From a virus: a stretch of 40,665 nucleotides of DNA. Positions 5,941-40,665 of this stretch are shown here, piece by piece; position 1 is the stretch's first letter, and each line of letters starts with the position of its first letter. The translations under genes were made by a program, and so were the position numbers. The notes under the pieces are model-generated. The model was not told where the DNA came from. It searched no databases and saw nothing but the letters and a program-made list of their open reading frames with translations. The stretch covers positions 1 to 40,665 of the IMG/VR virus record IMGVR_UViG_3300010403_000017; one strand, written 5' to 3'.

Positions 5941-7947
5941 TTACTGAGCGCCGCTATCGCTTGAGAGCGCGAAGCTTGCCGCATGGCGGAGGCCATTGTC
6001 GGTCCAGAGCGTGATAGTCACTTCGATCTGCCCGTTCTTCGCCAGCGTATAGGGGTTCACCACGACATCGATCCCCGCCCAGTCGGCCAGGATGAGGTCT
6101 GCCCAGTTGCCGAAGAAGACGCGATCGGCGTAGGTCCCGGTGGAAAGAATCTGATTCGTCGCTTCCGCCCGGTAGCCGTTCACCATGCCGGAACCGTTCG
6201 CGCCGGTATCCCAGAGGAACGAGCTGTACTGCGAGCTCGCGATTTTCGTTGCGGTTTTCCACACGCCCCTCACTCCGGGTGACGTGAGATAGGCCATTTT
6301 CCCGAGCAGCGCGTTCGCCTGCGCGACTTTGGTTTCGAAGGAAACAATTTTCGCCCACGTCGCCGCGGCGCTGAAAGAGACGCTTCCGATCCCCGTGACG
6401 TTCGCGATCCCCAGCGGCTGACCCGCCGAGCCGAGGCCGAAGAGCGCCGCACGATCTTTTTCAATGGCCAGGATGCGCATGAGATCTTCACGCACGAAGG
6501 CTTCGATGGAGATCGAGGACTGATTCAGCAATTCCTTGTCGTACGCCGTATCTGCCACGAGGCGATGCGGGACGAGACCTAACTGCGCGAAGGTCTGATC
6601 GGACGCCGTTACGGCCCCATTGGGTGGGAGCCAATAGGCGGTCGCGCCGCCTGATTGCCGTGGGATAGCAATGTTGCCGGTGAGACCTGAGAGCTGACGG
6701 GCGCCCAATTCAGCGACCAGGGTTTGATTCCTTAAGAGCTCGATCAGGCTGGTCCCCAGGACCTCGGTATCGACTGTGAAGCCGCCGGCAGATCCCGTTG
6801 CCGTGCCCAGGGCGCGCTTGTGGACCACGACATCATTGGGGATCCGGAAACCGAGACCTGACATGGCGCCCCTCTTGCACGTCTTTTCCAACGCGTCGTT
6901 GACTTCTTTCTCCAGGCCATCGAGCTTTTCCTTATGGATGAGGCTCTGCATCGCCCGGACGATCGAATACGATTTTACGTCTTTGATGCTCATGCCGAGA
7001 TTCGATGAGACGCTTTCATCGGCATTCGCCGGCGTGGCCGGGACGACGCCGCTTAAGCGTTTCAGGATCTCGTCGTTGAACTCGTCTTTGGTCCAACCTT
7101 TCTCGACCGCTGTCGATCGCATGATTTCCATGTCACGGTACTGATCGTCGGGCTTGAAGCCCTGAAGATGTCTCGCCGCGACGGCGTTGATGTGACTGAT
7201 TCTCTCGCGCTCCTGGGTTTGCACCTGGGAGCGGATTTCTTTCTCAGTCAAGACTGGTGTCTCTGGCATAGGTTGTCGCCTTTCAATTATTTTGATGTTT
7301 GGGTTGTCTCTCAATTCTCGCTCTAAAAGCCTTTGCGCTTCCTCATCGGTTGCGTCAGCGGAGAGTCCTCGCTGAATGAGGAGCTGCTTTATATTCGGAT
7401 CCATGGCCGAGCGCGTCTTCGAATTACCATCGGCGCCGATCGGCGTTAAACTTCCTTCCTTTAGCTTCCACTCTGGCGTCACCCTCAGCGGACCCTCGAA
7501 GGTCCGCCCAGCGATGACGGTCGATTGTTTTTCCGGGATCCAGGTCGACTTGAGCCGTTGATACCCGGCCGAGATGTCGGTCAGATGGCCCTCGCGCGCT
7601 TTGATCTCAGCTTTTTTACCGTCATCGGTGGAATCAAAATGGAGCGTCCCGGTGATACTCCCGTTCTCCGCTTTGATGGAGCGGATACTGCCGAGCATCG
7701 AATCGATCGAATAGCGAAGGTGACTGTCCAGGAGGGGGATCTGATTGCCCTCCATCTTCATCCCGTCGGCAAGGAGAATTTCCTTATGAGCTCCCCGCTC
7801 CCAATCCCAGACGTCGACCGGATTCTCGGTGGCAATCGTCGCCTGCATCGTTCGCTTCTCGCCGTCATAGGAAGTCGGAATCGGCGACATCCTTCGGGTG
7901 ACGAGCTCCAATGCCCGTAAATCTCTCTCTTCATTCGGCATGTGCAT
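5941..7947 (-). CDS. Fused prohead protease, scaffold-like linker and HK97-type major capsid protein
   Basis: One uninterrupted ORF. The N-terminus has an HK97/S78-type protease pattern (LLDSHL ... GTLHF ... TDISAGY). A charged coiled-coil-like middle follows. The C-terminal 290 aa or so is HK97 capsid-like (GGFTVDTEVL ... FGNWADLILADWAGIDVVVNPYT). Start is ATG 7947 or 7941 (GGAAG upstream). Confidence 0.85.
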   Translation of the reverse strand: MHMPNEERDLRALELVTRRMSPIPTSYDGEKRTMQATIATENPVDVWDWERGAHKEILLADGMKMEGNQIPLLDSHLRYSIDSMLGSIRSIKAENGSITGTLHFDSTDDGKKAEIKAREGHLTDISAGYQRLKSTWIPEKQSTVIAGRTFEGPLRVTPEWKLKEGSLTPIGADGNSKTRSAMDPNIKQLLIQRGLSADATDEEAQRLLERELRDNPNIKIIERRQPMPETPVLTEKEIRSQVQTQERERISHINAVAARHLQGFKPDDQYRDMEIMRSTAVEKGWTKDEFNDEILKRLSGVVPATPANADESVSSNLGMSIKDVKSYSIVRAMQSLIHKEKLDGLEKEVNDALEKTCKRGAMSGLGFRIPNDVVVHKRALGTATGSAGGFTVDTEVLGTSLIELLRNQTLVAELGARQLSGLTGNIAIPRQSGGATAYWLPPNGAVTASDQTFAQLGLVPHRLVADTAYDKELLNQSSISIEAFVREDLMRILAIEKDRAALFGLGSAGQPLGIANVTGIGSVSFSAAATWAKIVSFETKVAQANALLGKMAYLTSPGVRGVWKTATKIASSQYSSFLWDTGANGSGMVNGYRAEATNQILSTGTYADRVFFGNWADLILADWAGIDVVVNPYTLAKNGQIEVTITLWTDNGLRHAASFALSSDSGAQ

Positions 7948-9730
7948 CTTCCATTTTGTGGTTGTTCTTTTTTGAGACCAGGATCCGGTAGACCTCATTC
8001 AGGAGTTCGCGCGCCTTCTCTTCATACTTCGCGGACCTTGCCGCCGGGGTGCCGCCGTCGGAATTTGGATCTTCAATTGCAGCAGCGGCCGGACCGCCGA
8101 GTGCGATTTCATCGACCTTGAGTTTCAGGCCGAGACTTGAGGCCAGATCCTTTTCGGCTTTGAGCTCGAGATAGATCTCCTCGAGTGTGCCGCCGCGTTC
8201 GGCGATTACCTGCGTCGCAGTCTTGAAGCCGGCCTGTACCTGGAGAATTTCCGCTTCGACATCTTTGAAGGGATCGACCCATTCCCAGCGTCTGCCGATC
8301 CAGTTGGGGCGGCAAAAGTAGCTGAACTTTGCAAGGTCGATTTTGATCTGCCCCTTCATCGCCGCCATCCAGAGCCATTCTCTGAAAATCGGCTTGAGGA
8401 AGGTTTCGATGAAGAACCTCTGGTAGATCCTCCACATATCGCGCTCGATGATCTTCCCGTCGCGAATGGAGGAGTAATTCACATTCTCCAGATCCCCGGT
8501 GAGGGATTCGTAGCTCACGTTGAGGCCGGTCGCTATTCCCCGTAGGGTTGTTTTCATGAAGCTCCCATGTTGGGCGGTCGGATATTCGGGGGCCCAGGGT
8601 GAGAACTTCAACCCGACGGGGAGCTCCTGCAGTGTCCCGGCCGCGGCATCCATGACGAAATTGCCTTCGCCGTCTTTTGCCTGACCGGTGAAACCTTCGG
8701 TGGGCGTGCCGGGGATCCGCTCGAAGAAGCCCATCTTCGAAGCAGAGGCGCGCGCGTTGACGATCGCGGCCTCCTCGTAGCCGGTGAGCATCCGCAGGCG
8801 ATACATCGATTGCACCATCGGGCTCATCCCGCGCGTCTGATTCTCATACTCCTGATCGAATCCGAAAATCAACTGATCGGCCGGGATGATATTATGCGGA
8901 TAGGAGTACGGCAGGCCGCCGTACAATTCCATTTCCGGGATCCGCCTGCGCATGTAATAATTCAGAGGCCTCTTCCACTCATCGAGCTCGACGCCCATCT
9001 TGACGACATTGCCATTCTTGAGGAGCTGCGAATACTGTTCGTCGATCGCTTCGGTCTCAACGAGGCCGAATTTGATCCCGTAGTCGAATTTGCCGTCGAC
9101 GATTTTCTGCAACGCCGCCTCGCCGTCTCTGGCCCAATATTTTGCGAGCATATCCTGCAAGCCCCAGAAGGAGAAGCGCCCGTTGATCGAGCAGTACTCC
9201 TTTTCGCACCACTGCATAAAGGCGTCTTCGATCATCGCATTCGCCGATTCGTCGGCGACGCCTTTGGGGAATTGCTTCGATCGTTCGCCCCTGACATCCA
9301 TCTGGAGCGTGAAACCGTTCGGGCCCACGACGTTGGAGCGTACGAGGTTCACATACTTCTTCGCGTAATCGTTATTCTTGACCAGGTCCCGGGCGCGTTC
9401 TCTGACAATTCGCAGTGAGAGTCGAATGTCCTGATCCGGGCTTACCGGCGCGCTCGTCCAATCATTCGTGAAGCGGGTGAGCTGCGCGGCGGCGAAGGAG
9501 CGTGAAGCGTAGCTTGCTCCTTCGTTGAATTTCTGAACGGCAGTCTGCTTGATCGTTCGCTTCATCGACTTCAGTTCCTTACCGAGCTTGGCGACTTTCT
9601 TCTCCGAGTCACGGCTGATTTCGCCGACCCTGGTGTTCATCTCGCCGCGGACGTCATCGATCTTCGCGATGACTTCCTTCTCTGGAATGAACCCTACCCG
9701 TCGCGCAATATTGTCGATCAGCTTTGCCAC
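7931..9730 (-). CDS. Portal protein, lambda family
   Basis: 599 aa. C-terminal region WVDPFKDVEAEILQVQAGFKTATQVIAERGGTLEEIY is typical of lambda gpB-type portals. Gene order is TerL, portal, protease. Confidence 0.9.
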   Translation of the reverse strand: MAKLIDNIARRVGFIPEKEVIAKIDDVRGEMNTRVGEISRDSEKKVAKLGKELKSMKRTIKQTAVQKFNEGASYASRSFAAAQLTRFTNDWTSAPVSPDQDIRLSLRIVRERARDLVKNNDYAKKYVNLVRSNVVGPNGFTLQMDVRGERSKQFPKGVADESANAMIEDAFMQWCEKEYCSINGRFSFWGLQDMLAKYWARDGEAALQKIVDGKFDYGIKFGLVETEAIDEQYSQLLKNGNVVKMGVELDEWKRPLNYYMRRRIPEMELYGGLPYSYPHNIIPADQLIFGFDQEYENQTRGMSPMVQSMYRLRMLTGYEEAAIVNARASASKMGFFERIPGTPTEGFTGQAKDGEGNFVMDAAAGTLQELPVGLKFSPWAPEYPTAQHGSFMKTTLRGIATGLNVSYESLTGDLENVNYSSIRDGKIIERDMWRIYQRFFIETFLKPIFREWLWMAAMKGQIKIDLAKFSYFCRPNWIGRRWEWVDPFKDVEAEILQVQAGFKTATQVIAERGGTLEEIYLELKAEKDLASSLGLKLKVDEIALGGPAAAAIEDPNSDGGTPAARSAKYEEKARELLNEVYRILVSKKNNHKMEDAHAE

Positions 9731-24055: not shown

Positions 24056-24062
24056 TTTGGGG

Positions 24063-24638
24063 ATGCCAATGACACGCTTACTTACCTTCATACTTTTCTG
24101 TTCCAGTCTCGCGATTGCCGATGATATTAAGTTTCGAGATGGATCCTTCCTTAAAAACGTTCAGGTCACAGATACGACTGATGGAAAGATCACAGTAAAA
24201 TACCTGGCCACGACGAGGCATTTTCCTCTCAGCACGATCGATGCCATCACAAAAGCTGACTACGATTATACTCAGCCAAGCCCCTATTACACTTCTGAAC
24301 AATTCATGAACGATCCACTGGCTCAGGTTCATCCGGCGCCAACGGGAATCACCGGCGCGGTGATTGTAACGCGGCCGAATCTCAAGCTTCTGCCTTTGTC
24401 TCTTCTGGCAGTCGGGCTTTCATGGGATTATTTTGCTCAGGCATCGGACCTCGGAGATCTCATCGACGCAACATCGAAATTCGGGGGAGATACTTCTGAG
24501 CTTGAATCGGCGCATACCCGGAAAACTATTCTTGGAGTGACCTTCCTCGCAGCGGGCATCGTCAATGCCTACATCAGCCTCCAATCGGTCGAGATCAAAG
24601 CCTCCCCGAACTCAATTGCGATCGCATACAAGTTCTAA
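24063..24638 (+). CDS. Signal-peptide membrane protein in the lysogeny operon (candidate superinfection-exclusion or conversion factor)
   Basis: MTRLLTFILFCSSLAIA-DD signal-like N-terminus and two later hydrophobic segments. Squeezed between the cI stop (24055) and the int start (TAATG overlap at 24638). Confidence 0.55.
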   Translation: MPMTRLLTFILFCSSLAIADDIKFRDGSFLKNVQVTDTTDGKITVKYLATTRHFPLSTIDAITKADYDYTQPSPYYTSEQFMNDPLAQVHPAPTGITGAVIVTRPNLKLLPLSLLAVGLSWDYFAQASDLGDLIDATSKFGGDTSELESAHTRKTILGVTFLAAGIVNAYISLQSVEIKASPNSIAIAYKF

Positions 24639-26462: not shown

Positions 26463-26695
26463 GGCGCACCAATAAAGACATCGCTCTGATGCATCATAGG
26501 CACACATTGGGCACACTGGTTTCAAAAAGTGGCGATTTTCGTGACCCCGGCGCGAATCGAACGCGCAACCTACAGCTTAGAAGAATGGCCAGAGCGTTTT
26601 AGATTCCCAATGTTTTCGAATTTCTATCCGTTTGCGTGAGTCTCAATGCGTCTGAGTGAGCCTCAGCGCTCTTTTGGGCACACCGTTGGGCACAC
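26463..26695. mobile_element. attP region: tRNA-derived core flanked by GGCACAC arm-type repeats
   Basis: GGCGCAC at 26463, GGCACAC at 26499, TTGGGCACAC at 26507, then the core, then TTGGGCACAC at 26674 and 26686. All are in the same orientation. Confidence 0.7.
26542..26583 (-). other. 3-prime 42 nt of a tRNA-Arg(UCU)-like gene (attP core; not a functional tRNA)
   Basis: Minus strand: CTTCTAA (anticodon loop, UCU), GCTGT, AGGTT, GCGCG-TTCGATT-CGCGC (T arm), CGGGGTC-A (acceptor plus discriminator). No matching 5-prime half is present. Confidence 0.75.
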
Positions 26696-26725
26696 AAAAA
26701 AGGTGGCTGTTGGTCAGCAGCCACC
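26696..26725 (-). terminator. Rho-independent terminator ending the late/lysis operon
   Basis: Minus strand: GGTGGCTG / ctgaccaa / CAGCCACC, followed by TTTTTTG. Lies 43 nt downstream of the last lysis-cassette stop. Confidence 0.7.
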
Positions 26726-26767: not shown

Positions 26768-27586
26768 TTACAGTCTGAAAATCTCGTAGCTGATCTGGTA
26801 GTACGGCGTCTGATTGACAAAGAGGAGTACTCCGGCGCCGATACGGTCCAGGTTCACGCGGGCCCCAAGCGCGGCCTCTTCCTTCCAGCCGGCCCACAAT
26901 GACAGCTGCGTCGGGTCGAGATCGAATAACCGGTAGCCGGCCGTCCAGAGTGGCTTCTCTCCGGCAAGGAACATGGCGCCGGCCGATATCTTCCCCAGCT
27001 GGAGCTCGCCACCCAGGCCTGCGATCTGTTGATACCCGCCGGTGAACCGGAAGGCGAAGCCCCCGAGATCGAACACGCCATTGTCACGCGATCGCGTCGT
27101 CACTTCGGAGGGAATCACGAATGGATCCACCCCGGCGTAGATCAGCTGGAAGGTATTGAACGGTTCTCCGTAAAACATAGCCGAGACGCGCATCTTCGTC
27201 TTCGCGCTCGAGTGGACTGTATCGCCCTCATGGACCAATCCCACGTTGACAGCGACCTCGGTAGAATCATCCATCAGATACGTTACTACTTTCTCTGAAT
27301 CGAGCACTATCCTTCGATACGGCGACCCGGTATCGCCAGGGTAACCCGTTTCCCACTTCGGCGTCAGAAGCCGCGTCAATTGATCATAGAGCTTTCGGTT
27401 TTCCTTCTTGAGCCGGGCGAGCTCCACGGTATCGACCTTGGCGGGGATGATGTGATCCTTCACCGGCTCGATGGCGACCGCCGCGGGCGCGGTCGTGACG
27501 GTTTCAGTAACCGAAAGACGTCCCAGGAAGAACGCGCCGGCTAAGGCAGCGGCACAGGCTAAGAGGGTAAACGTTGTCTTATTCAT
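26768..27586 (-). CDS. Envelope protein coupled to the endolysin: N-terminal TM anchor, coiled coil, beta-rich C-terminal domain (candidate spanin equivalent)
   Basis: MNKTTFTLLACAAALAGAFFLGR anchor. ELARLKKENRKLYDQLTRL helix. C-terminal alternating-hydrophobic strands ending YYQISYEIFRL. ATGA overlap with the SLT stop. Confidence 0.55.
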   Translation of the reverse strand: MNKTTFTLLACAAALAGAFFLGRLSVTETVTTAPAAVAIEPVKDHIIPAKVDTVELARLKKENRKLYDQLTRLLTPKWETGYPGDTGSPYRRIVLDSEKVVTYLMDDSTEVAVNVGLVHEGDTVHSSAKTKMRVSAMFYGEPFNTFQLIYAGVDPFVIPSEVTTRSRDNGVFDLGGFAFRFTGGYQQIAGLGGELQLGKISAGAMFLAGEKPLWTAGYRLFDLDPTQLSLWAGWKEEAALGARVNLDRIGAGVLLFVNQTPYYQISYEIFRL

Positions 27587-29962: not shown

Positions 29963-29964
29963 CG

Positions 29965-30105
29965 TTATATCCTCACATTGAATACTTTTTTGAAGCTCAT
30001 ATAGACATTGAAGATCGCCCTGTGGAGATACTGGACCGCCGCCTGGAGGTTGGTAACCTGCGGTGTTCCGTATGGGGTCGTGCCATATGACGATTGTCCG
30101 AACAT
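29965..30105 (-). CDS. Unlisted 46-aa ORF, coupled at both ends
   Basis: ATG 30105 shares its A with the TGA of the 1416-aa gene. Hand translation: MFGQSSYGTTPYGTPQVTNLQAAVQYLHRAIFNVYMSFKKVFNVRI. The stop is 2 nt before the next ATG, and its 3-prime end carries that gene's GAGGA RBS. Confidence 0.4.
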   Translation of the reverse strand: MFGQSSYGTTPYGTPQVTNLQAAVQYLHRAIFNVYMSFKKVFNVRI

Positions 30106-33100
30106 CAGCGTGTTAACCCATTGACCATATAGCGGTAATCATACTGGACCCAATCCATCGCCTTCCTCGAATTATAGTTTTCATTCGAGAGAAAGAATGT
30201 CCAGCCATGCATCGATGTCGTCGGGACATGACTTGTGGACGTTTTCTTGAAGACCCCGTTGACGTACCAGTCGACCGTCGTGAGCTTGTAGACTGCATCC
30301 ACGCGGTATGCCGTGTTTGCAGCCGCGGCGACGAGTCCAACCCTTACCTTGCTCGAGCTCGCCGTTCCGGTGCTTCCGATCGGCGCGTCGCAGGTAACCC
30401 CATAGACCGAATCGCAGACGCCGGTCTTGTTTCCGATCTCTCCCCAGATACCGGCCCTTATGCTATCCATCAGCGGTACGGGAGTCTGTATTGTCCCGTC
30501 GACGATTCCATGATGCCACGCCATCGAATCGATCGTGGAGGGCGTCGAAATGAACAAGTGGAGTATAGACTTGTTCTTGATGGTGTAGATCGACGGAGCT
30601 CCAAAGAAGACGTTTGGCGACAGCCATATTCCGCAATAGAGCCCGTTCGAATGATACTGACGCGCGGAATCTGCCGTGATCGTCAGGCCGAACATACCGT
30701 CATCATCGACAGCATGGTTCATGTAGCGCTGGCCCCAGGAGGCGACCGTGCCCGATCGACCGCCGAAGCCCTTCACGCCCCACCTATGCAAGCCTGGCTC
30801 CATTCCGGCCGCATTGCCGGCTCCGCTTGCGACCGTGGTATTGCTACCGTAACCCGCGTCCCAGTTCTCGATGTACTCATAGGAATTGTTCAGCGAATCA
30901 GTGACAAGATTCGATATGGTTATCGTCGAATCTGTCTGCGTCACTCCGATTCCGGGACCCGGGGCGATCGTCACATTACTCATAAGCGCGCTCGCTCCCT
31001 GGGCCTTGATCGATTTCACCCCTGCCGCACTTGATTGCTGGCTTGCAGCGATCGCATTACGAACGCTCGATGCGGTTGCCGGCGTATCTACCGGGGTCCC
31101 GTTGATCGTGGTGGTGTTCAAAGCTGTCACCGTCGCATTCGGCGTGCTGAGGCCGCCCTGGAAGACCTGTGGCGGGATATATGTTTTCGAAACGGTAGCC
31201 GGATCGACCGTCTGATAAGGGTGCCATGTTCCGAGGGAATCTTCATATCCAAGAATGGACCAGTTGGCCAGGAGAGAAGAATTCGGCGACGGTATGTTCG
31301 CCGGGCCTGTAATCTGGAAGGTGAGCCACGGCGCCGGATATTCATTGTGCGTGAACGGCTTGTTCGCATCCAGATAGGGAGTCATCTGGTAATGCGGCGC
31401 GACAGTGACGCTGCCGCCGGTAACTGAGACGGTGAATTTGCGCCAGCCGGTGAAGGCGCTCTTGCCGGCAGAATTCTTTGACGCGGCCCTCCAGTAATAG
31501 TTACCATTCACCAGGCTTCCGATTCCGCGCGTCAATAGGCCGCTCGATGAATCATCCATTACGAAGGTGGAGCTGTTCGTGTCGATCTTCACCTGGAAGA
31601 TGTTGACCAGGATTGTGTCCACACCGTTCGTACTGATCGTGAGCGTCGTACTGGAGCTCGTAATGGTCGCATTCGCCGCGGGAGAGACAAGAGTCGGGGC
31701 CGACGGCGGATTGACTGTTATCCCGATGGTCGTGAAACCTGTGTAGGTCGAATAGGATGTCGTTCCGGCCGGCACCGTCGCATTCGCCCTCCAATAATAC
31801 GTCGTCGCATTGGTCAGCGATGTGAGAAAGGGGTTCTGGCCGACGGTGACTGTCGTATCGGTCAGATCCATCTCAGAAAAGAGCGCCGAGAAATCCGTCG
31901 CCGTCGATATCTGGAAATGGTATGAGGTCGCGCCCGTCACCCTCGTCCATTTGAAGGTGAGCCCGAAGATCGCCTGGTTTGTGGCATTGGCCGATGGAGA
32001 GACATTCGTCGGCCCGGAAGGCAACGTGACGACCTGTTGACCGCCTGCCGCCTGCCCAGCAGCTTCGATGATCCAGTTTCTCTGCGAGACGTTCGCATTG
32101 GTCGGATCGCAATCCATCTGGTAATCGAAGAGCATATACCCGGAGAAGCCATTCGTTTTAATGTAGGTGATATCATCCTGGACCCTTTGAGGCGTCGGAT
32201 AGGTGTAGTAAAAGGGCTGGCCGCCGGTCACGTTATTAATCGTACCTTCATAGGTCGCACTCGAGAGCGCAATACCCTTTATCACCTGGTCCTTCGCCGT
32301 TGTGTCGTACGGCTGGATCGCTCCACCGTTGAGCTGGAGGGCGTTGATGAGATTCTGATTATTGTGGGCATAGCCGTCGTTGGAGAAGGCCCCGTACCTT
32401 GATGTGCTGCCGGTCCTCAAACGTCCATAGGTCGAGACGCCCACACCGAGGATTCTCTTTTGATATCCTACGTCGGCCCATTGCTGCGGTCCGTGTTGCG
32501 AGACATTGTGAAGCTTATCACCGGCCGACATACAACCCGGCGCGTCGCCCGGAGGATAAATGAAGCCGGCGCCCCAATTACAATTCGCACCGATACAGCC
32601 ATTCCATGCGTATTGATTATCGTACGTCTGCGGATTGATCTGGTCGACGTTATTGTTGCAATCGGCAACCGGGTAATTGTTCTGGTCACCGGAGGTCGGG
32701 GAGAGTGTGAATGTCATCTTGCCGCCAATGCCGGCCGAGTACTGGTCAAGGGATGCCCGCATCCTTCTTATAAGCAGCCCGATATTATTCTTACCCGGGA
32801 AATTGCCGCACCCATGTTCGATGTTGATGTCGACGCCATCGGCGCCATGGCGAAAGAGATAGGATGCGACAGCATTGGTGAATGTCTGTGTTCTGGTCGA
32901 GTCACTTCCGTCGATGACTCCATTCCCATTCGCATCAATGACAGCGATGAGCTCCGTCGCGCAAACGGCATTGACGCATATCAATACGCGCACGCCGGCC
33001 GCGTGGGCTCTGGCGATAAGGTCCTCAAAATAATGCGTCGGGTTCGACGGCCTGCCCGTTCCATAGAGCACATCGAGCGAGTCATTCAGATTGACACCAC

Positions 33101-34355
33101 TTGTCGGTCCCCAGAAAGGTGAGATCCCCGAGCGAACATTGCCATTTGGGAAGAGGATGATATGTGATATCCCGTTGAGATAGTTCAACCGGTCCGGAGG
33201 TTCAGCCCACCACGCCGATCCAAGAGGGATCATCTGCCACACGTCATAGTATGCCGTCACCCAGAGTGTCCGCGCAGGATAGACTGTGTACGGGAGTTGA
33301 GTTGTATATACGTTCCCGTGCACGTCGACCGCTCTCACTTTCACTATGTAGTTCCCGGGCTTCTGCTTCAGTCCGGCCATACGCACGGTCGTATCCCGGT
33401 ACCCGAGCGCCGGGTTGGTGCTGGGTACAACGTGTATCGAATCAATGAAGGCGCCTGTGACTGTATCTCGCTCCATCTGGATGTAGGCAATACCGGGATC
33501 CTTTTGGATGCAGGTATCGAGCTCGGTCACGCGCGCGATCCAGTAGCCGGTCATGCTCGAGTCGAGTGTGCCGGCGCTCGCGATCAAGGACGGATTCGCA
33601 GGCTTCACCGTATCGACCGTCGCGCATACTGGAGGGACAAACGTTGCCACGCCCAGGAAGAAGGCGCCAATCTGCGTCGTCGGATTTGTCGATGCCCTCA
33701 CTTCAAAGCCGCAATATCCGGAACTCGGCAGCGTCGTTCTCGCCGTTTGGGTTGTGTAGAGCGTCGTGCCACTCGCGCTTGAGCGGTACACCTTCATCGT
33801 CTGGCCGCTAATCTTGACATAGATTGTGTCACTCGAGAGCCCATCGGGGACGATCGTTGCATTTCCCTGACCCGGTCCGTAGGGCGCGTTTCGTACGCCG
33901 TTGGTGATATCGTTGAAGCGCACCGAGAACTGATTGTGGTCCCAGGATCCAAACTCTACGATCGTCGCATTGAAGCCGCTCGTATGTTGATTCGCCAGAA
34001 GATAGAATACGATATCAGTCGCCTGGGCCGCCTGGTAGGCGGGCGTCGTAGACTTGACGGGCACCGTCACGCCGATAATGAGCTCATCGGTTCCATTGTT
34101 GGAGACGGCATTTTTCCAGAAGACGCCGCCATAATGATTTACACCAGCACCATTCGATGCCGTCACAACACCATTGGAGGCGGTGAGTGTCGAGTCGGCC
34201 GGGGAGTTTGACGGGATCTTCCCGAAGCTCAACACGCCGGAGATATTGGTGCCGTTCGCGTCATTGAAATCGGAGATGAGGACCTGGGGCAATTGCGCAA
34301 ATGCGCAAAGCGTTGAGAGAATTGTGAGGAATAGAATTGTGCGAAGTCTCTTCAT
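30105..34355 (-). CDS. 1416-aa multidomain protein: Sec signal peptide, ConA/LamG-like domain, Ig-like domain, GH18-like TIM barrel, two FN3-like modules, C-terminal jelly-roll-like domain
   Basis: MKRLRTILFLTILSTLCAFA-QL. DGVDINIE at nt 32817..32840. YMLFDYQMDCD. Two modules containing a YYWRA motif (TTYYWRANAT, GNYYWRAASK). ATGA-coupled to the upstream fibre gene. Confidence 0.7.
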   Translation of the reverse strand: MKRLRTILFLTILSTLCAFAQLPQVLISDFNDANGTNISGVLSFGKIPSNSPADSTLTASNGVVTASNGAGVNHYGGVFWKNAVSNNGTDELIIGVTVPVKSTTPAYQAAQATDIVFYLLANQHTSGFNATIVEFGSWDHNQFSVRFNDITNGVRNAPYGPGQGNATIVPDGLSSDTIYVKISGQTMKVYRSSASGTTLYTTQTARTTLPSSGYCGFEVRASTNPTTQIGAFFLGVATFVPPVCATVDTVKPANPSLIASAGTLDSSMTGYWIARVTELDTCIQKDPGIAYIQMERDTVTGAFIDSIHVVPSTNPALGYRDTTVRMAGLKQKPGNYIVKVRAVDVHGNVYTTQLPYTVYPARTLWVTAYYDVWQMIPLGSAWWAEPPDRLNYLNGISHIILFPNGNVRSGISPFWGPTSGVNLNDSLDVLYGTGRPSNPTHYFEDLIARAHAAGVRVLICVNAVCATELIAVIDANGNGVIDGSDSTRTQTFTNAVASYLFRHGADGVDINIEHGCGNFPGKNNIGLLIRRMRASLDQYSAGIGGKMTFTLSPTSGDQNNYPVADCNNNVDQINPQTYDNQYAWNGCIGANCNWGAGFIYPPGDAPGCMSAGDKLHNVSQHGPQQWADVGYQKRILGVGVSTYGRLRTGSTSRYGAFSNDGYAHNNQNLINALQLNGGAIQPYDTTAKDQVIKGIALSSATYEGTINNVTGGQPFYYTYPTPQRVQDDITYIKTNGFSGYMLFDYQMDCDPTNANVSQRNWIIEAAGQAAGGQQVVTLPSGPTNVSPSANATNQAIFGLTFKWTRVTGATSYHFQISTATDFSALFSEMDLTDTTVTVGQNPFLTSLTNATTYYWRANATVPAGTTSYSTYTGFTTIGITVNPPSAPTLVSPAANATITSSSTTLTISTNGVDTILVNIFQVKIDTNSSTFVMDDSSSGLLTRGIGSLVNGNYYWRAASKNSAGKSAFTGWRKFTVSVTGGSVTVAPHYQMTPYLDANKPFTHNEYPAPWLTFQITGPANIPSPNSSLLANWSILGYEDSLGTWHPYQTVDPATVSKTYIPPQVFQGGLSTPNATVTALNTTTINGTPVDTPATASSVRNAIAASQQSSAAGVKSIKAQGASALMSNVTIAPGPGIGVTQTDSTITISNLVTDSLNNSYEYIENWDAGYGSNTTVASGAGNAAGMEPGLHRWGVKGFGGRSGTVASWGQRYMNHAVDDDGMFGLTITADSARQYHSNGLYCGIWLSPNVFFGAPSIYTIKNKSILHLFISTPSTIDSMAWHHGIVDGTIQTPVPLMDSIRAGIWGEIGNKTGVCDSVYGVTCDAPIGSTGTASSSKVRVGLVAAAANTAYRVDAVYKLTTVDWYVNGVFKKTSTSHVPTTSMHGWTFFLSNENYNSRKAMDWVQYDYRYMVNGLTR

Positions 34356-35359
34356 GGGATTATCCTGTATTCATATGTTACTTTCACCGGCACCGAATGT
34401 GTTTGGCCCAGTCTGATTTCAAGTGTGTCGTTGTAGCAGGGTGCGTTCAGCGACGAGCTGACGATAATCGCGAGCTTCTCGGAATATCCCGCCTTCGCCC
34501 AGCTCGTTGAGAGCAGGCCGGGTATATAGATCTTCTTCGATTCCAATCCTGCCGGTATGCTCGTCGTGTCATATTTCGTAGCGGTCGATTTGGCGAACGT
34601 AGCAAGAGGTGCTTCGAAGTTCGGGGCGGCATCTCTGGACTGGATAGTGCTATCGAGTATCCCCCCTGACGTCATGCTATTAGTTCTATATGTCGGATTG
34701 GGGAAGGTACCGGTGAGATCTCCGCCGGCCGGGCCGGCCAGATTCGCAGCGAACGCGTAGTTCGCAGTATCGGAATGACCGATCCTCGCATTGCGGTTGA
34801 ATTTATTGCTTGTGATACTCGAATCAGTCATCCTGGATCCGGGGACTGAGAGACTCTTAAGGTCGGTGCTATCGAGTGAGGCCGGAGTTATATTCGCTGT
34901 AGCCGTCGGACCGGTCCCGTTGTTGATGGTAAGTTTGTTGTCCGTGTTTTGGATTGCCTGGATGCCCGTGCCACCTCCACCCACTCCCGCATTGATGGTG
35001 ATCGTGCCTCCTGAGTAAGTGACGACGGCGCCGCCGGCGCCGACGATCGTCCAATACTGAAAGGCGTTCGCAGCGGAGTTCATGCCGACCAACTGGTTCG
35101 CCGTTCCGGCTCCGGAGAGGCCGGTCAATGAAACGATGCCGGTGACCGAATTGATGGTGACCGGGAAGGCGCCCGTGAGCGAATTTCTCGCGCGAGCATC
35201 GGTATAGAAGAGCTTCGTTCCTTCGATGAGATAGGTCGAGCTTAAGGGGTGGAAGCCCGGCCTGCCGCTCGAGGGCCATTGATAGACATCGCCGGTGCTC
35301 TGCGCCATCAGCGTCTGAGAGAGCGCCAGACATGTCATTACGAGAAGGATCCGTTTCAT
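34352..35359 (-). CDS. Tail-fibre-like protein with an N-terminal Sec-type signal peptide
   Basis: MKRILLVMTCLALSQTLMA-QS. Gly/Thr/Ser-rich beta repeats. GDLTGTFPNPTY motif, which is common in fibre proteins. Confidence 0.6.
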   Translation of the reverse strand: MKRILLVMTCLALSQTLMAQSTGDVYQWPSSGRPGFHPLSSTYLIEGTKLFYTDARARNSLTGAFPVTINSVTGIVSLTGLSGAGTANQLVGMNSAANAFQYWTIVGAGGAVVTYSGGTITINAGVGGGGTGIQAIQNTDNKLTINNGTGPTATANITPASLDSTDLKSLSVPGSRMTDSSITSNKFNRNARIGHSDTANYAFAANLAGPAGGDLTGTFPNPTYRTNSMTSGGILDSTIQSRDAAPNFEAPLATFAKSTATKYDTTSIPAGLESKKIYIPGLLSTSWAKAGYSEKLAIIVSSSLNAPCYNDTLEIRLGQTHSVPVKVTYEYRIIP

Positions 35360-35373
35360 TGTGGGTGTACTCC

Positions 35374-35952
35374 TTACGGAAAAATTGTGATGATGATATT
35401 ACGATCGGCCGTCTCTTCAGCAGTCGATTCAACGATGATATGCCCATCGTCGCCCTGCTCTTTGATTGACAGCGCACCGATCGGCGTAAGCGCGTTCACC
35501 CCCCAATTCGCGATCACCTTGGAGGTCGACGTGAGTCCCGCTACTCCATTCACCTGGGCAGTGGATGTCGCCACGGAGAGGACCGCCCGGATGACTACCG
35601 GAAAGGCCGATCGGATCTGATCGATCGTGTTTTTCGTCGGGACGAGAGCCATGCGGTAGGTCTTGTTCGACAGATTATGATTTGAAGCTACGGTGCCTTC
35701 TTGGGCTCTCAAGATGTTGGTTAGAACGTCACCGACCCACGACGGCACTCGGATGACTTCATAGTTTGGATCATCGATCGGGTCGGAGTAGTCGGTGCCG
35801 TTCCACCAGATCATATTGAACGGCCCTTCCGAAGCAGGCACGGGCAGCTTCGAGGTCTCGCCTGAGACCAGACTGATATTCACCGCGGCCGCATCGTAGC
35901 CGGCAGCGACGGTGACGCGGGCTTTATTTCGGACTGGATCTATTGTGGCCAT
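35374..35952 (-). CDS. Tail fibre or baseplate attachment protein (N-terminal QEGT motif)
   Basis: YEVIRVPSWVGDVLTNILRAQEGTVASNH matches the widespread E.I.V....G..LT..RGQEGT fibre N-terminal motif. Start ATG 35952. Confidence 0.55.
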   Translation of the reverse strand: MATIDPVRNKARVTVAAGYDAAAVNISLVSGETSKLPVPASEGPFNMIWWNGTDYSDPIDDPNYEVIRVPSWVGDVLTNILRAQEGTVASNHNLSNKTYRMALVPTKNTIDQIRSAFPVVIRAVLSVATSTAQVNGVAGLTSTSKVIANWGVNALTPIGALSIKEQGDDGHIIVESTAEETADRNIIITIFP

Positions 35953-39733: not shown

Positions 39734-40665
39734 GAGAGGGTCAAGCTCCTTCGGGTATTGATGACCCACTTGTTGACGTCCCCCACTCCTGCAGCCCTCA
39801 GTCCTTCCTCCAACCCTTTTTTGATCCAATCAGCCCGCTCGATCGGGACATTGAAGTGTTGTATGATCGTGATGCTCCTGGAAGAATTGTCATTGTTCAC
39901 CATGCTCTGGATCTCGCGCTCCTGGGCTTCGGTACGGACCGTCTCCCCGCCACGGACCAGGATGGGGAACTCCCGCGACATCCCCCCGGGCATGACGATA
40001 CCGCCGGTGTGGAACTTCGGCGTGGGCGCGTTTTCGATGACGGCTATCTGCGCGGCGCCCAATGCGGCGACGATCGGGATCATCCAGGGGGTGGCAATGA
40101 CCTTGGTGATCTCCTCGGCCGTATTGATGAGCGCTTCGATCGCGCGAGCATCTTTCTCCCCTTCGAAGGCATCAATCTTCGCCTGCCGTATTTTTTCGTC
40201 ATAGGACTTTTGCAGCGTGGCTTTTTCATCTTGTAGGCGCTTCTCTTCAGAGGACCCTTTCTGCGCAGCGGCGATACGCGCATCCATCGTCGCCAGAGCC
40301 TGAGCTTCCTCGGCCTGGAGCCCATCGATCACCGCCTGGCTATTCTGAGACTGCAATTGGTTGAGAATACCGAAGCCTTTCGACGCACTCTGGAACGTAA
40401 AGTCGATCGTCTTTTGCATCTGCTGCATATCTTTTGCGACGGTGTCGAGCCCGAGGGTAAGCTTAGGGAGTGTGAAGATCTTCGGAAGCCGGTCGACATT
40501 GGGATTGGAAAAAATAGTGTTCAAGGTCTGGGTCGATGCATCACCGATGCCGAGAATGTGACGCTTGTGCTCCTCCATGAGATAGTTGGTTCGAGATAAT
40601 GCTTTGTCCAGCGTCAGCTGAAGCCGAACGATTTCATCTTCCTTCTCAAACCACAACTTGGAATA
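39730..40665 (-). CDS. Tape measure protein, C-terminal part (40543..40665 duplicates 1..123)
   Basis: Same frame as 1..1002 across the junction. Coiled-coil-rich, then IATPWMIPIVAALGAAQIAVI and a Gly-rich end. Confidence 0.8.
   Translation of the reverse strand, partial: YSKLWFEKEDEIVRLQLTLDKALSRTNYLMEEHKRHILGIGDASTQTLNTIFSNPNVDRLPKIFTLPKLTLGLDTVAKDMQQMQKTIDFTFQSASKGFGILNQLQSQNSQAVIDGLQAEEAQALATMDARIAAAQKGSSEEKRLQDEKATLQKSYDEKIRQAKIDAFEGEKDARAIEALINTAEEITKVIATPWMIPIVAALGAAQIAVIENAPTPKFHTGGIVMPGGMSREFPILVRGGETVRTEAQEREIQSMVNNDNSSRSITIIQHFNVPIERADWIKKGLEEGLRAAGVGDVNKWVINTRRSLTLS
40543..40665. repeat. Terminal overlap, identical to 1..123
   Basis: Direct comparison of the two window ends. Confidence 0.97.

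What the first reader, a model, noticed from the sequence alone, without database searches (positions are those of the whole stretch)
30105..35359. Two ATGA-coupled tail-fibre-locus proteins carry textbook Sec signal peptides
The 335-aa ORF begins MKRILLVMTCLALSQTLMA/QS. The 1416-aa ORF begins MKRLRTILFLTILSTLCAFA/QL. Each has a basic n-region, a 13-15 residue hydrophobic core and a small-x-small cleavage motif. Both sit inside the tail operon, just after a fibre-anchor protein with the QEGT motif. They are chained by overlapping stop/start codons (34352..34355 and 30103..30107), and the 335-aa protein looks like a fibre (GDLTGTFPNPTY, Gly/Thr beta repeats). Tailed-phage virions assemble in the cytoplasm, so exported proteins should not end up in the particle. 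One option is that these N-termini are uncleaved anchors. The other is that the phage co-expresses a secreted adhesin-like protein and a giant glycosidase with its late genes, as free depolymerase, envelope remodelling or lysis assistance. Neither option is standard.
Basis: partly seen in the sequence, partly recalled or inferred. Interest (0 to 1): 0.75.

Follow-up and report, generated by a model that had tools for sequence, protein, structure and literature searches.

The report
Exported phage fibre and glycosidase pair
A temperate phage of Ignavibacteria-type bacteria sends a fibre-like protein and a giant GH18 sugar-cutting enzyme, both encoded among its tail genes, through the host's secretion pathway, where they are probably coated with sugars; this is unusual because tailed-phage particles are built in the cytoplasm.

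Summary
ORFs 35359..34352 (335 aa) and 34355..30105 (1416 aa, GH18) are real, share an ATGA overlap, and start with canonical signal peptides.

These are very unlikely to be chance hydrophobic N-termini.
- Every full-length homologue in at least six other phage contigs keeps a signal peptide, although the sequences have diverged.
- The predicted cleavage always exposes Gln. This is the "Q-rule" of Bacteroidetes and Ignavibacterium, and the attP tRNA-Arg fragment names Ignavibacteria-group bacteria as host.
- The Bacteroidetes periplasmic O-glycosylation sequon D-[ST]-[AILVMT] is about 3x enriched in exactly these proteins: 157 observed against 51.6 expected, z = 15. It is not enriched in the other phage proteins, in a homologue that lacks a signal peptide, or in the fibre-repeat family at large.

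No T9SS C-terminal domain, lipobox, private promoter or private terminator was found.

Best reading: the proteins are made late, exported by Sec, cleaved by signal peptidase I and probably O-glycosylated. They wait in the periplasm and are released by lysis to act outside the cell. I cannot tell whether they act free or dock onto virions after holin triggering. Docking would be new for tailed phages.

Both structure predictions failed. No relatives exist among cultured phages. I rate this a new variant of a known kind.

The parts
34352..35359 (-). Gene for the 335-aa exported fibre-like protein. It has a signal peptide, a conserved N-terminal domain, one DUF5907-type shaft repeat and a variable C-terminal domain.
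   Evidence: ORF. Homologues P0009-P0015 and P0018 have a conserved N-terminus, a variable C-terminus and 1-3 shaft repeats. No Pfam or PHROG hit.
35303..35359 (-). Signal-peptide codons of the 335-aa protein (residues 1-19, MKRILLVMTCLALSQTLMA; predicted cleavage before Gln20).
   Evidence: All full-length homologues carry a signal peptide plus A/Q (or S/Q, C/Q). It is the only confident element of the AF2 model (helix 2-17).
35370..35375 (-). Shine-Dalgarno motif AAGGAG, 10 nt upstream of the ATG at 35359. It overlaps the stop codon of the upstream gene.
   Evidence: Sequence read.
34688..34729 (-). Shaft motif AGGDLTGTFPNPTY (about residues 211-224), the core of the fibre repeat.
   Evidence: Invariant or nearly invariant columns G209-P222. 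The family has 8,692 members. Pfam DUF5907 is found in relatives.
30105..34355 (-). Gene for the 1416-aa exported multidomain GH18 protein. Its order is signal peptide, N-terminal domain, Ig-like region, GH18, two FN3-like repeats, a fibre-like stretch and a C-terminal domain.
   Evidence: ORF. Pfam GH18. Alignment with P0002-P0004 and the L001/L003 proteins. FN3 and Ig families are recorded on homologues.
34296..34355 (-). Signal-peptide codons of the 1416-aa protein (residues 1-20, MKRLRTILFLTILSTLCAFA; predicted cleavage before Gln21). The ATG overlaps the TGA of the 335-aa gene (ATGA, 34355..34352).
   Evidence: Conserved signal peptide plus Gln in P0002, L001, L003, L011 and L039.
32112..32906 (-). 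GH18 domain (Pfam match to residues 484-748).
   Evidence: E = 1e-21. Distant from solved chitinases.
32811..32840 (-). GH18 catalytic motif DGVDINIEHG (residues 506-515). The catalytic Glu is present. The Asp that normally precedes it is Asn.
35374..35952 (-). Upstream 192-aa protein (probable start MATIDPV), a possible tail-fibre anchor or adaptor with the RAQEGT motif. It has no signal peptide and no sequons.
   Evidence: Weak PHROG hits (phrog_6427 E = 0.0008; phrog_8469 tail fiber E = 0.008). Syntenic 205-aa and 191-aa genes in L001 and L039. Sequons 0 observed against 0.1 expected.
26702..26725 (-). Strong intrinsic terminator that closes the late (tail plus lysis) transcription unit containing both genes.
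   Evidence: Among the minus-strand terminator-like hits between 40665 and 26500, this is the one with the longest, most G+C-rich stem (8 pairs, 6 G-C) and the cleanest T run.
26541..26583 (-). attP core: the 3' half of tRNA-Arg(UCU), which identifies the host clade.
   Evidence: The 35-nt exact match occurs only in 27 Ignavibacteriota, Ignavibacteriales, Bacteroidota and Chlorobi-group genomes.

Best explanation
Both ORFs are genuine substrates of the Sec pathway and signal peptidase I, adapted to an Ignavibacteria/Bacteroidota-type host.

Proposed pathway:
1. They are transcribed and translated with the late tail and lysis genes. There is translational coupling and no private promoter or terminator.
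2. They are exported to the periplasm and cleaved so that Gln becomes the new N-terminus. In this host clade that Gln is cyclised to pyroglutamate.
3. They are probably O-glycosylated at many D-(S/T)-(A/I/L/V/M/T) sites by the host's periplasmic general glycosylation system.
4. They have neither a T9SS C-terminal domain nor a lipobox, so they stay in the periplasm until the phage's own lysis cassette releases them.
5. Outside the cell they work as a stabilised pair: a fibre-shaped binder and a multidomain GH18 glycanase, acting on GlcNAc-containing surface or matrix glycans of host cells. My leaning is that they act as free or debris-bound proteins that help progeny reach or leave cells.

Shown by sequence: the signal peptides, their conservation, the Gln at +1, the sequon enrichment, the absence of outer-membrane targeting signals, and the operon embedding. 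Inferred: actual export, pyroglutamate formation, glycosylation, the substrate, and the final location.

The confidence given is for the whole statement, including the 'free rather than virion-bound' leaning. For the core claim (real Sec/SPI export of both proteins) I would say about 0.85.
For: Signal peptides and starts
- Signal peptide plus Gln in both proteins.
- The same in every full-length phage homologue, at only 20-55% identity. Fibres: P0009, P0010, P0012, P0013, P0014, P0018. Giants: P0002, L001, L003, L011, L039.
- SD motifs or stop/start overlaps sit at the starts that include the signal peptide.

Host
- Ignavibacteria group, from the attP tRNA-Arg half.
- Ignavibacterium album Q-value is 77% (PMC5837995).

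Sequon D[ST][AILVMT] (motif definition and periplasmic transfer from PMC6120980)
- 335 aa: 5 observed against 1.2 expected (P = 0.004). 1416 aa: 18 against 5.6 (P < 0.0005).
- 12 module proteins from 7 loci: 157 against 51.6, z = 15.4.
- Control motifs score 0.17-1.06x. The 106 proteins of the same phages without a signal peptide score 1.24x.
- The GH18 giant in L009 that lacks a signal peptide: 10 against 11.1. Classical fibres without a signal peptide: 0-1 against about 2.4.
- Sites are spread over all domains and mostly not shared between distant homologues.

Other
- The closest cellular relative, P0004, is a GH18 protein with a signal peptide and a T9SS C-terminal domain, 61% identical over the shared region (30% of the query).
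- No T9SS domain is detected in the phage proteins.
- No sigma-70 or Bacteroidetes-type promoter lies next to the genes. The best terminator candidate is at 26725..26702. GC content is uniform.
- Cys residues are invariant across the four GH18 homologues of alignment A2 (C460, C465, C516, C587, C608), including the closely spaced pair C460/C465. This is compatible with disulfides.
Against: - No trained signal-peptide predictor and no experiment was available. Export, cleavage and glycosylation are all inferred.
- It is not established that Ignavibacteria have the Bacteroidetes O-glycosylation system. My small host sample showed only weak enrichment in signal-peptide-like proteins (1.66x against 1.28x).
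- Many Q-rule fibre-repeat proteins elsewhere show no sequon enrichment.
- The RBP-like features argue that the proteins could be virion parts rather than free proteins. These are the conserved N-terminus with a variable C-terminus, the varying repeat number, the position in the structural operon, a possible anchor gene upstream, and the slot equivalence with a fibre that lacks a signal peptide in an SU10-like podovirus.
- The GH18 motif has Asn in place of the Asp before the catalytic Glu, so activity is uncertain.
- The substrate is unknown.
Confidence: 0.45

Rival explanations
1. Periplasm-matured virion parts. Export, cleavage and glycosylation happen as in the best explanation, but the final destination is the particle. 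After the holin opens the inner membrane and before the outer membrane bursts, cytoplasmic virions mix with the periplasmic fibre and the GH18 giant. These then dock on the tail, for instance on the 192-aa anchor-like protein. The virion would carry host-glycosylated, pyroGlu-capped receptor-binding and depolymerase proteins.
For: - The module sits in the structural operon of at least six other phage contigs, with three or more different head/packaging gene sets.
- It is tightly coupled to the upstream tail genes.
- An anchor-like gene lies directly upstream in the window, L001 and L039.
- The fibre family shows RBP-type evolution: conserved N-terminus, variable C-terminus, 1-3 shaft repeats.
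- The shaft repeat is shared with fibres that lack a signal peptide in a phage contig. There the fibre sits in the structural gene block shortly after the major capsid gene, as the module does in L044.
- In L011/L044, small signal-peptide-plus-Gln proteins follow the major capsid gene, where decoration proteins often lie.
- The two genes take 13% of the genome.
Against: - I know of no exported virion component in any tailed phage (own knowledge).
- The anchor identity is weak (E about 0.001-0.008; nothing in the PDB search).
- No virion proteome exists for any relative (no INPHARED hits).
- No recognisable virion-attachment domain was found in either protein.
- Both structure predictions failed.
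Confidence: 0.3
2. Periplasmic function inside the infected cell. The pair acts before lysis. It might weaken or remodel a glycan layer to assist lysis. It might destroy receptor or glycan precursors on the periplasmic side, so that superinfecting phage and released progeny do not adsorb to the dying cell and its debris. This would be functionally like T5 Llp or T4 Spackle.
For: - Export without an outer-membrane targeting signal.
- Late co-expression directly upstream of the lysis cassette: holin-like 90 aa, TM and coiled-coil 121 aa, SLT-like 174 aa, 272 aa.
- GH18 includes lysozyme-type and endo-beta-N-acetylglucosaminidase-type activities (own knowledge of CAZy).
Against: - Such roles are normally filled by small proteins, not by a 1416-aa multidomain protein plus a fibre.
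- Threefold sequon enrichment and fibre architecture suggest long-lived extracellular exposure.
- In L011/L044 and L005 the module is not next to lysis genes.
Confidence: 0.12
3. Lysogenic-conversion cargo (moron). The prophage gives its host a secreted chitinase-like enzyme and an adhesin for nutrition or adhesion.
For: - About 5% of prophage CAZymes carry signal peptides (PMC13507307).
- The closest GH18 relative is a cellular secreted enzyme (P0004).
- A fibre-repeat protein with a signal peptide also occurs in a chromosomal, non-phage neighbourhood (P0017).
- The phage is temperate, with an integrase and a CI-like repressor.
Against: - No own promoter or terminator, and translational coupling to tail genes.
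- GC content is the same as the flanks.
- The T9SS domain of the cellular relative is missing, so a living lysogen could not secrete the enzyme across the outer membrane.
- The module is conserved inside structural operons of unrelated phages.
Confidence: 0.06
4. T9SS or other surface display. The proteins carry an unrecognised C-terminal sorting domain and are placed on the surface of the infected cell.
For: - The host clade has T9SS-type cargo (P0004-P0007 carry PF18962-type C-terminal domains).
- The C-termini of the phage proteins are small beta-rich domains that end in basic or aromatic residues.
Against: No match to Por_Secre_tail (PF18962) at E <= 10, or to the NCBIfam T9SS models at E <= 1. 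The C-terminal domains are variable rather than conserved.
Confidence: 0.05
5. Not exported. The hydrophobic N-termini are uncleaved membrane anchors or assembly helices, or the true starts lie downstream.
For: - The JGI gene call starts the 335-aa protein at Met8.
- Virions assemble in the cytoplasm (general knowledge).
Against: - SD motifs or stop/start overlaps sit at the upstream starts.
- The n-h-c architecture, small -3/-1 residues and Gln at +1 are kept in all full-length homologues while the sequence itself drifts.
- The sequon enrichment is specific to these proteins.
Confidence: 0.03

Closest known systems
Q-rule signal-peptide genes of Porphyromonas gingivalis prophages (Nixviridae; Matrishin et al. 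2023, PMC10367356)
   Same: Genes of a temperate Bacteroidota-type phage whose products have signal peptidase I signal peptides exposing an N-terminal Gln. The authors read this as adaptation to the host's general secretion system. Function is unknown.
   Different: Those are five genes of unknown function, described without a conserved fibre + GH18 architecture, without module synteny across phage lineages and without a glycosylation-sequon signal. No sequence relationship was tested here.
Exported accessory proteins of tailed phages: lambda Lom/Bor, T5 Llp, phi80 Cor, T4 Spackle (own knowledge)
   Same: Phage-encoded proteins with signal peptides, some located within or next to tail genes (lom; llp beside the RBP gene). 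They act in the envelope rather than in the particle.
   Different: Those are small (roughly 60-200 aa) outer-membrane or lipoproteins, or periplasmic inhibitors. Here there is a 335-aa fibre and a 1416-aa multidomain glycosidase, both SPI type, with no lipobox and no beta-barrel. No homology was detected.
Prophage-encoded CAZymes with signal peptides (PMC13507307)
   Same: A glycoside hydrolase encoded by a temperate phage and carrying a Sec signal peptide. About 5% of 64,678 prophage CAZymes do.
   Different: That survey excluded genes linked to structural components. Here the enzyme is embedded in and translationally coupled to the structural operon, is paired with a fibre, and has no independent expression signals.
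Phage depolymerase tailspikes and fibres, and their free soluble forms (own knowledge)
   Same: A large carbohydrate-active protein encoded at the receptor-binding-protein position. It has a fibre-shaft repeat and a variable C-terminus.
   Different: Known depolymerases fold in the cytoplasm, have no signal peptide and are mostly beta-helix lyases or hydrolases. Here the fold is a GH18 TIM barrel with a Sec signal and a glycosylation-sequon excess.
Cellular secreted GH18 protein P0004 (signal peptide + GH18 + SdrD_B + T9SS C-terminal domain) and chromosomal DUF5907 fibre proteins with signal peptides (e.g. P0017)
   Same: 61% identity over the shared region, 30% of the query, which contains the GH18 domain. 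The same signal-peptide logic applies. The same shaft repeat occurs in exported bacterial fibre proteins.
   Different: The phage proteins lack the T9SS sorting domain. They have extra N-terminal, FN3, shaft and C-terminal modules, and they occur as a coupled pair inside phage late operons.
Streptococcus mitis phage SM1 PblA/PblB (own knowledge)
   Same: Tail-fibre-type phage proteins that end up functioning outside the particle on bacterial surfaces after phage-mediated permeabilisation.
   Different: PblA/PblB have no signal peptides and are true virion proteins of a Gram-positive phage. No homology was tested.

Membership tests
Sec / signal peptidase I signal peptide (Bacteroidetes Q-rule type) | Basic n-region, uncharged hydrophobic h-region of about 10-15 residues, and small residues at -3/-1 | tested here: met
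   MKRILLVMTCLALSQTLMA/Q and MKRLRTILFLTILSTLCAFA/Q pass the rule-based scan. Only 6 of 56 genes and 6 of 197 shadow ORFs pass.
Sec / signal peptidase I signal peptide (Bacteroidetes Q-rule type) | Gln at +1 of the cleavage site, in a host clade that follows the Q-rule | tested here: met
   Gln at +1 in both proteins and in all full-length phage homologues. The host is the Ignavibacteria group. I. album has a Q-value of 77% (PMC5837995).
Sec / signal peptidase I signal peptide (Bacteroidetes Q-rule type) | Positive call by a trained predictor (SignalP6, DeepTMHMM) | not testable with these tools
   No such predictor was available. Only my own rules were used.
Sec / signal peptidase I signal peptide (Bacteroidetes Q-rule type) | Experimental export and cleavage (PhoA fusion, neo-N-terminus by mass spectrometry) | not testable with these tools
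   Uncultured phage. No proteome exists.
Lipoprotein (signal peptidase II) signal | Lipobox with Cys at +1 | tested here: not met
   Position +1 is Gln. C10 and C17 lie inside the h-regions without a lipobox context.
T9SS cargo | C-terminal sorting domain (Pfam PF18962 / TIGR04183 / TIGR04131) | tested here: not met
   No hit at Pfam E <= 10 or NCBIfam E <= 1. The cellular relatives P0004-P0007 do have the domain.
Glycoside hydrolase family 18 | Significant match to the GH18 profile | tested here: met
   PF00704 E = 1e-21, 78 bits against a cut-off of 29.6.
Glycoside hydrolase family 18 | Catalytic DxxDxDxE motif | tested here: inconclusive
   The window has DGVDINIE: Glu is present and the preceding Asp is Asn. 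L001 has DGANVDLE, L003 has DFIEFDLE and L009 has the canonical DGIDVDYE. Activity was not tested.
Virion tail fibre / receptor-binding protein | Fibre-shaft repeats and RBP-like modular evolution | tested here: met
   GGDLTGTYPNPT repeat, 1-3 copies. Conserved N-terminus and variable C-terminus. The repeat is shared with phage fibres that lack a signal peptide.
Virion tail fibre / receptor-binding protein | Recognisable virion-attachment domain, or presence in purified particles | tested here: inconclusive
   No PHROG, Pfam or PDB hit for the N-terminal domains. AF2 models were unusable. Presence in particles cannot be tested here.
Moron / lysogenic-conversion gene | Own promoter and terminator, a compositional break, and expression from the prophage | tested here: not met
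   No promoter-like site is positioned to drive either gene. The terminator-like hits inside the 1416-aa gene are weak and within the number expected from shuffles. ATGA coupling, a 14-nt gap to the upstream gene, and uniform GC of 0.54-0.57. Expression itself was not tested.
Substrate of the Bacteroidetes general O-glycosylation system | Periplasm-exposed D-(S/T)-(A/I/L/V/M/T) sequons | tested here: met
   5 against 1.2 and 18 against 5.6 expected in the window. 157 against 51.6 pooled, z = 15.4. Control motifs and proteins without a signal peptide are not enriched.
Substrate of the Bacteroidetes general O-glycosylation system | The host possesses the system, and glycopeptides are detected | not testable with these tools
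   No data for Ignavibacteria were found. The host sample shows only a weak trend.
SAR / signal-anchor domain (as in SAR endolysins) | Weakly hydrophobic Gly/Ala/Ser-rich N-terminal TMD without a cleavage site | tested here: not met
   The h-regions are Leu/Ile/Phe-rich (mean Kyte-Doolittle 2.3-2.8) and are followed by A-x-A/Q-type sites.

The most novel reading that the evidence does not exclude
The fibre and the GH18 giant are true virion components that mature outside the cytoplasm, as may the small signal-peptide-plus-Gln proteins that follow the capsid gene in related phages. They would be exported, cleaved, pyroGlu-capped and O-glycosylated by the host's periplasmic machinery. They would join the cytoplasmically built particle only after the holin has opened the inner membrane. 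That would be the first two-compartment assembly pathway for a tailed phage, and it would give host-glycosylated receptor-binding proteins.
Probability: 0.3. Interest if true: 0.9.

Novelty: new variant of a known kind. Interest (0 to 1): 0.68.

Why it matters
Tailed-phage particles are thought to be assembled entirely in the cytoplasm, and phage glycosidases at the fibre locus are thought to be cytoplasmic tailspikes. This window shows a conserved two-gene module, a fibre plus a giant GH18 enzyme, taking about 13% of the genome. It is found in at least seven phage contigs with several different head/packaging gene sets. The module is routed through Sec with a host-clade-specific cleavage signature, and its proteins carry a threefold excess of the host's periplasmic O-glycosylation sequon.

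If the inference holds, phages of Ignavibacteria/Bacteroidota deliberately use the host's extracytoplasmic maturation line (disulfides, pyroglutamate, O-glycans) for late proteins that work outside the cell. This would:
- give a sequence-level marker (signal peptide + Gln + sequon density) for finding such proteins in viromes;
- give a host-prediction signal for uncultured phages;
- make the question 'can virion parts be matured in the periplasm?' directly testable;
- point to stable, glycosylated phage glycanases as candidate enzymes.

Tried and rejected
Structure prediction
- AF2 on the 335-aa protein (12-sequence alignment) gave mean pLDDT 44.7.
- AF2 on the C-terminal 416 aa of the giant gave pLDDT 26.2.
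- Both models were unusable, so no fold search was run.

Homology searches
- NCBIfam returned nothing for either ORF. Pfam returned nothing for the 335-aa protein (apart from a chance-level Peptidase_S3 hit, E = 0.17) and only GH18 for the giant. PHROGs returned nothing for either.
- blastn and tblastn against 50,697 cultured-phage records found nothing for the region, the 335-aa, the 1416-aa or the 1024-aa proteins. TerL is at most 39% identical to any cultured phage, so no virion proteome can be borrowed.
- The GTDB genome scan with strict GH18 patterns found no relative.
- The PDB sequence search found only distant chitinases for the GH18 domain, and nothing for the 192-aa or 264-aa tail proteins.
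- BLASTP between the giant, the fibre, the 1024-aa protein and the 192-aa protein showed no shared domains.

Expression signals
- Scans for sigma-70 and for Bacteroidetes-type (TTTG...TAnnTTTG) promoters found nothing near the genes.

Ideas rejected
- The 47-aa and 107-aa ORFs after the giant are not a frameshifted copy of the 154-160-aa gene found after the giant in L005 and L040. Those encode unrelated multi-TM proteins.
- Sequon enrichment is not simply a property of the fibre repeat. The 143 best relatives of the repeat score 0.44-1.22x.
- Sequon enrichment is not a general bias of D-S/T or of hydrophobic triplets. Control motifs score 0.17-1.06x.

No precedent found
- Literature searches found no report of exported or host-O-glycosylated tail fibres in tailed phages.

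Full report
**1. What is at the coordinates**

The minus strand carries a 335-aa ORF (35359..34352) and a 1416-aa ORF (34355..30105). The stop of the first overlaps the start of the second (ATGA).
- The 335-aa ATG is preceded at 10 nt by AAGGAG, which overlaps the stop codon of the upstream gene. The JGI gene call that starts at Met8 (P0008, 328 aa) is therefore probably too short.
It opens only a 47-aa ORF that relatives do not share.
- Pfam finds a GH18 domain in the giant (residues 484-748, E = 1e-21) and nothing in the 335-aa protein. PHROGs finds nothing in either.

**2. The genome and its host**

- The window is a complete circular genome: a 123-nt terminal direct repeat, 1-123 = 40543-40665.
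- The phage is temperate. It has a tyrosine integrase, a CI/S24 repressor, a gpA-type terminase, a lambda-type portal and an HK97-type capsid. It also has head-closure, terminator and tail-completion genes.
- The tail and lysis genes run on the minus strand from the window end to the best terminator candidate at 26725..26702.
- Between the integrase and that terminator lies the 3' half of a tRNA-Arg(UCU) (26541..26583).
- A 35-nt exact search of 185,579 species genomes found this sequence in only 27. All are Ignavibacteriota, Ignavibacteriales, Bacteroidota or Chlorobi-group MAGs, including Ignavibacterium album, and there it is the 3' end of tRNA-Arg(UCU). By inference from attP, the host is an Ignavibacteria-type bacterium.

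**3. Are the N-termini real signal peptides?**

- My rule-based scan flags 6 of 56 gene-like ORFs and 6 of 197 shadow ORFs. Only the two flagged proteins have a small-x-small site followed by Gln.
- Homologues settle the point. Every full-length relative of the fibre has a signal peptide, as does every full-length relative of the giant in a phage contig. Sequence identity is only 20-55%, and Gln is at +1 throughout.
  - Fibres: P0009, P0010, P0012, P0013, P0014, P0018.
  - Giants: P0002, L001, L003, L011, L039.
- SD motifs or stop/start overlaps sit at the starts that include the signal peptide.
- Gln at +1 is the Bacteroidetes 'Q-rule' for signal peptidase I substrates. Ignavibacterium album has the highest Q-value reported outside Bacteroidetes, 77% (PMC5837995).
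- A hydrophobic assembly helix or a mis-called start would not preserve this host-specific cleavage signature.

**4. A conserved module**

The pair, a fibre-like protein of about 340-460 aa followed directly by a GH18 giant of about 1400 aa, recurs in several contigs.
- L039, the closest relative: the order is [986][249][191][fibre][giant].
- L001/L002: these carry a Minor_tail_Z gene.
- L003/L004: these carry Terminase_6N and a Gp13-like capsid.
- L005 and L040: partial copies.
- L011/L044-46: a podovirus with a P22-type portal. There the module sits between the head genes and the SU10-type adaptor.

So the module is always inside the late structural operon, but not always at the end of the tail cluster. 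None of these phages has a cultured relative.

**5. A second, independent signature of export**

The Bacteroidetes general O-glycosylation system adds glycans in the periplasm at D-(S/T)-(A/I/L/V/M/T) (PMC6120980).
- In the window the sequon occurs 5 times in the fibre (1.2 expected, shuffle P = 0.004) and 18 times in the giant (5.6 expected, P < 0.0005). Capsid, portal, terminase and the 1024-aa, 264-aa and 192-aa tail proteins are at or below expectation.
- Over 12 module proteins from 7 loci the count is 157 against 51.6 (sd 6.9, z = 15.4).
- The effect is motif-specific:

| Motif, in the signal-peptide-plus-Gln set | Observed / expected |
|---|---|
| D[ST][AILVMT] (sequon) | 3.15 |
| D[ST] + other residue | 0.88 |
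| Reversed motif | 0.92 |
| E[ST] + hydrophobic | 0.17 |
| N[ST] + hydrophobic | 0.74 |
| G[ST] + hydrophobic | 1.06 |
| D[AG] + hydrophobic | 0.75 |
| D[NQ] + hydrophobic | 0.91 |

- The 106 proteins of the same phages without a signal peptide score 1.24x for the sequon.
- A GH18 giant that lacks a signal peptide (L009, 2232 aa) has 10 against 11.1. Classical fibres without a signal peptide but with the same shaft repeat have 0-1 against about 2.4.
- The 143 best relatives of the repeat are not enriched, at 0.44-1.22x.
- The sites are spread over every domain of the giant. They are mostly not shared between distant homologues: 2 shared sites between L001 and L003, which have 18 and 22. The density, not particular sites, is therefore maintained.
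- The extra signal-peptide-plus-Gln proteins of L011 (157, 114 and 1019 aa) show the same excess.
- I read this as selection for heavy O-glycosylation, which is only possible after export. The inference depends on Ignavibacteria having the Bacteroidetes-type system, which I could not verify.

**6. What the proteins are**

*The 335-aa protein* has a signal peptide, a conserved N-terminal domain, one shaft repeat (GGDLTGTFPNPTY) and a variable C-terminal domain. Close relatives have three repeats.
- The repeat family is large: 8,692 hits. Relatives match Pfam DUF5907, and some carry the Peptidase_S74 chaperone.
- Most of its best-scoring members are long exported proteins that begin signal peptide - AQ - [VI]PRxISYQG.
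- One member (P0017) lies among housekeeping genes.
- Other members, without a signal peptide (MGDKISQLP...), are fibres of SU10-like podoviruses.
- A 'fibre look' therefore does not by itself mean 'virion fibre'.

*The giant* has a signal peptide, an N-terminal domain, an Ig-like region, GH18, two FN3-like repeats, a fibre-like stretch and a C-terminal domain.
- Its best cellular relative, P0004, is 61% identical over the shared region (30% of the query), which contains the GH18 domain. P0004 has a signal peptide and ends in a T9SS sorting domain.
- The phage proteins have no such domain and no lipobox.
- The catalytic Glu is conserved, but in the window's subgroup the preceding Asp is Asn (DGVDINIE).

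**7. How it most likely works**

*Shown:* the targeting and cleavage signals, their conservation, the sequon excess, the lack of outer-membrane sorting signals, and the embedding in the late operon (no promoter positioned to drive either gene and no convincing terminator between them, uniform GC).

*Inferred:* late synthesis, Sec export, cleavage before Gln, pyroGlu formation, multiple O-glycans, a wait in the periplasm, and release by the phage's own lysis cassette.

For a protein that lysis will release anyway, passage through the periplasm makes sense in two cases. Either the protein must act there, or it needs periplasm-only modifications that stabilise extracellular proteins. The Q-rule and glutaminyl cyclase are reported to increase the stability of extracytoplasmic proteins (PMC10653852 abstract). 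The sequon excess favours the second case.

Where the proteins end up is open. My estimates are:
- about 0.45 for free or debris-bound action on host surface or matrix glycans;
- about 0.30 for docking onto virions after holin triggering;
- about 0.12 for a periplasmic role in lysis or exclusion;
- small probabilities for a moron, T9SS display or no export.

The docking reading rests on these points: the RBP-like evolution of the fibre, the weakly supported anchor gene upstream, the slot equivalence with fibres that lack a signal peptide, and the small exported proteins next to the capsid gene in L011/L044. Against it stands the absence of any precedent in tailed phages.

**8. Relation to what is known**

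- Exported proteins of tailed phages are known: Lom, Bor, Llp, Cor, Spackle, spanins and Sec or SAR endolysins (own knowledge).
- Q-rule signal-peptide genes were noted, without a function, in P. gingivalis prophages (PMC10367356).
- About 5% of prophage CAZymes have signal peptides (PMC13507307).

Three things are new here: the conserved, coupled fibre + GH18 module inside structural operons; the loss of the T9SS domain relative to the cellular enzyme; and the strong glycosylation-sequon signal. I therefore class it as a new variant of a known kind. There is a 0.3 chance that it is something categorically new, namely periplasm-matured virion parts.

**9. Limits**

- No trained signal-peptide predictor was available.
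- Both structure predictions failed.
- There are no cultured relatives and no proteomes.
- The host assignment rests on attP alone.
- The sequon statistics use composition-based expectations and my own crude gene calls.

Noticed in passing
window 26541-26583 (minus strand): This is the 3' half of tRNA-Arg(UCU) and a probable attP core. It is identical from the anticodon loop to the discriminator base to tRNA-Arg genes of Ignavibacterium album and 26 other Ignavibacteriota/Bacteroidota-group genomes. It gives a host prediction for this uncultured phage.
   Followed up: yes
window 1-123 and 40543-40665: A perfect 123-nt terminal direct repeat. The contig is a circularly closed, complete genome of 40,542 bp, not an integrated prophage fragment.
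   Followed up: partly
window 24057-24638 (+): A 193-aa ORF between the CI-like repressor and the integrase starts with a signal-peptide-like N-terminus (MGMPMTRLLTFILFCSSLAIA/DD, no Gln at +1). It is a candidate lysogeny-expressed exported protein, for example for superinfection exclusion. It has no family hit.
   Followed up: partly
window 26768-27586 (-): The last gene of the late operon (272 aa) has an N-terminal signal or TM segment, a coiled-coil-like stretch and a beta-rich C-terminal half ending in ...YEIFRL. Its sequon count is 3 against 0.8 expected. It may be an unusual spanin-like envelope protein that links the inner and outer membranes. A 231-aa analogue sits at the same place in L001.
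   Followed up: no
window 32811-32840 (-); L039, L005, L040: The GH18 catalytic motif in this subgroup reads DxxDxNxE (Asn in place of the Asp before the catalytic Glu). This is conserved in the window, P0002, P0003, P0004 and L039. L001, L003 and L009 keep DxE. It may indicate altered chemistry, as in NxE-type endo-beta-N-acetylglucosaminidases, or reduced activity.
   Followed up: partly
L011 3055-3528, 4408-4752, 17272-20331 (also in L044-L046): In a related podovirus, further structural-region proteins carry a signal peptide plus Gln and a sequon excess. Two are small proteins (157 and 114 aa) right after the major capsid gene, and one is a 1019-aa protein. Exported proteins may be a general feature of late operons in these phages.
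   Followed up: partly
proteins P0028-P0170: The shaft repeat (DUF5907) defines a very large family. Its best-scoring members are 500-4700-aa proteins that start with a Q-rule signal peptide followed by [VI]PRxISYQG. This is an abundant, uncharacterised class of exported tail-fibre-like proteins in FCB-group bacteria. At least one (P0017) is in a chromosomal context.
   Followed up: partly
window 5941-7998 (-): The capsid gene encodes 685 aa, with the HK97-type Phage_capsid domain only in residues 405-678. The N-terminal 400 aa may be a fused scaffold or protease region.
   Followed up: no
L009 10034-16732: A 2232-aa phage protein without a signal peptide combines canonical GH18, a GDSL esterase and several Big domains. 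It shows no sequon excess. It is a useful natural contrast to the exported giants.
   Followed up: partly
window 29963-30105 (-): A 47-aa ORF starts at the TGATG overlap with the giant's stop codon. It has no detectable counterpart in relatives, where a 154-160-aa multi-TM protein follows the giant instead. Whether it is coding is unknown.
   Followed up: partly
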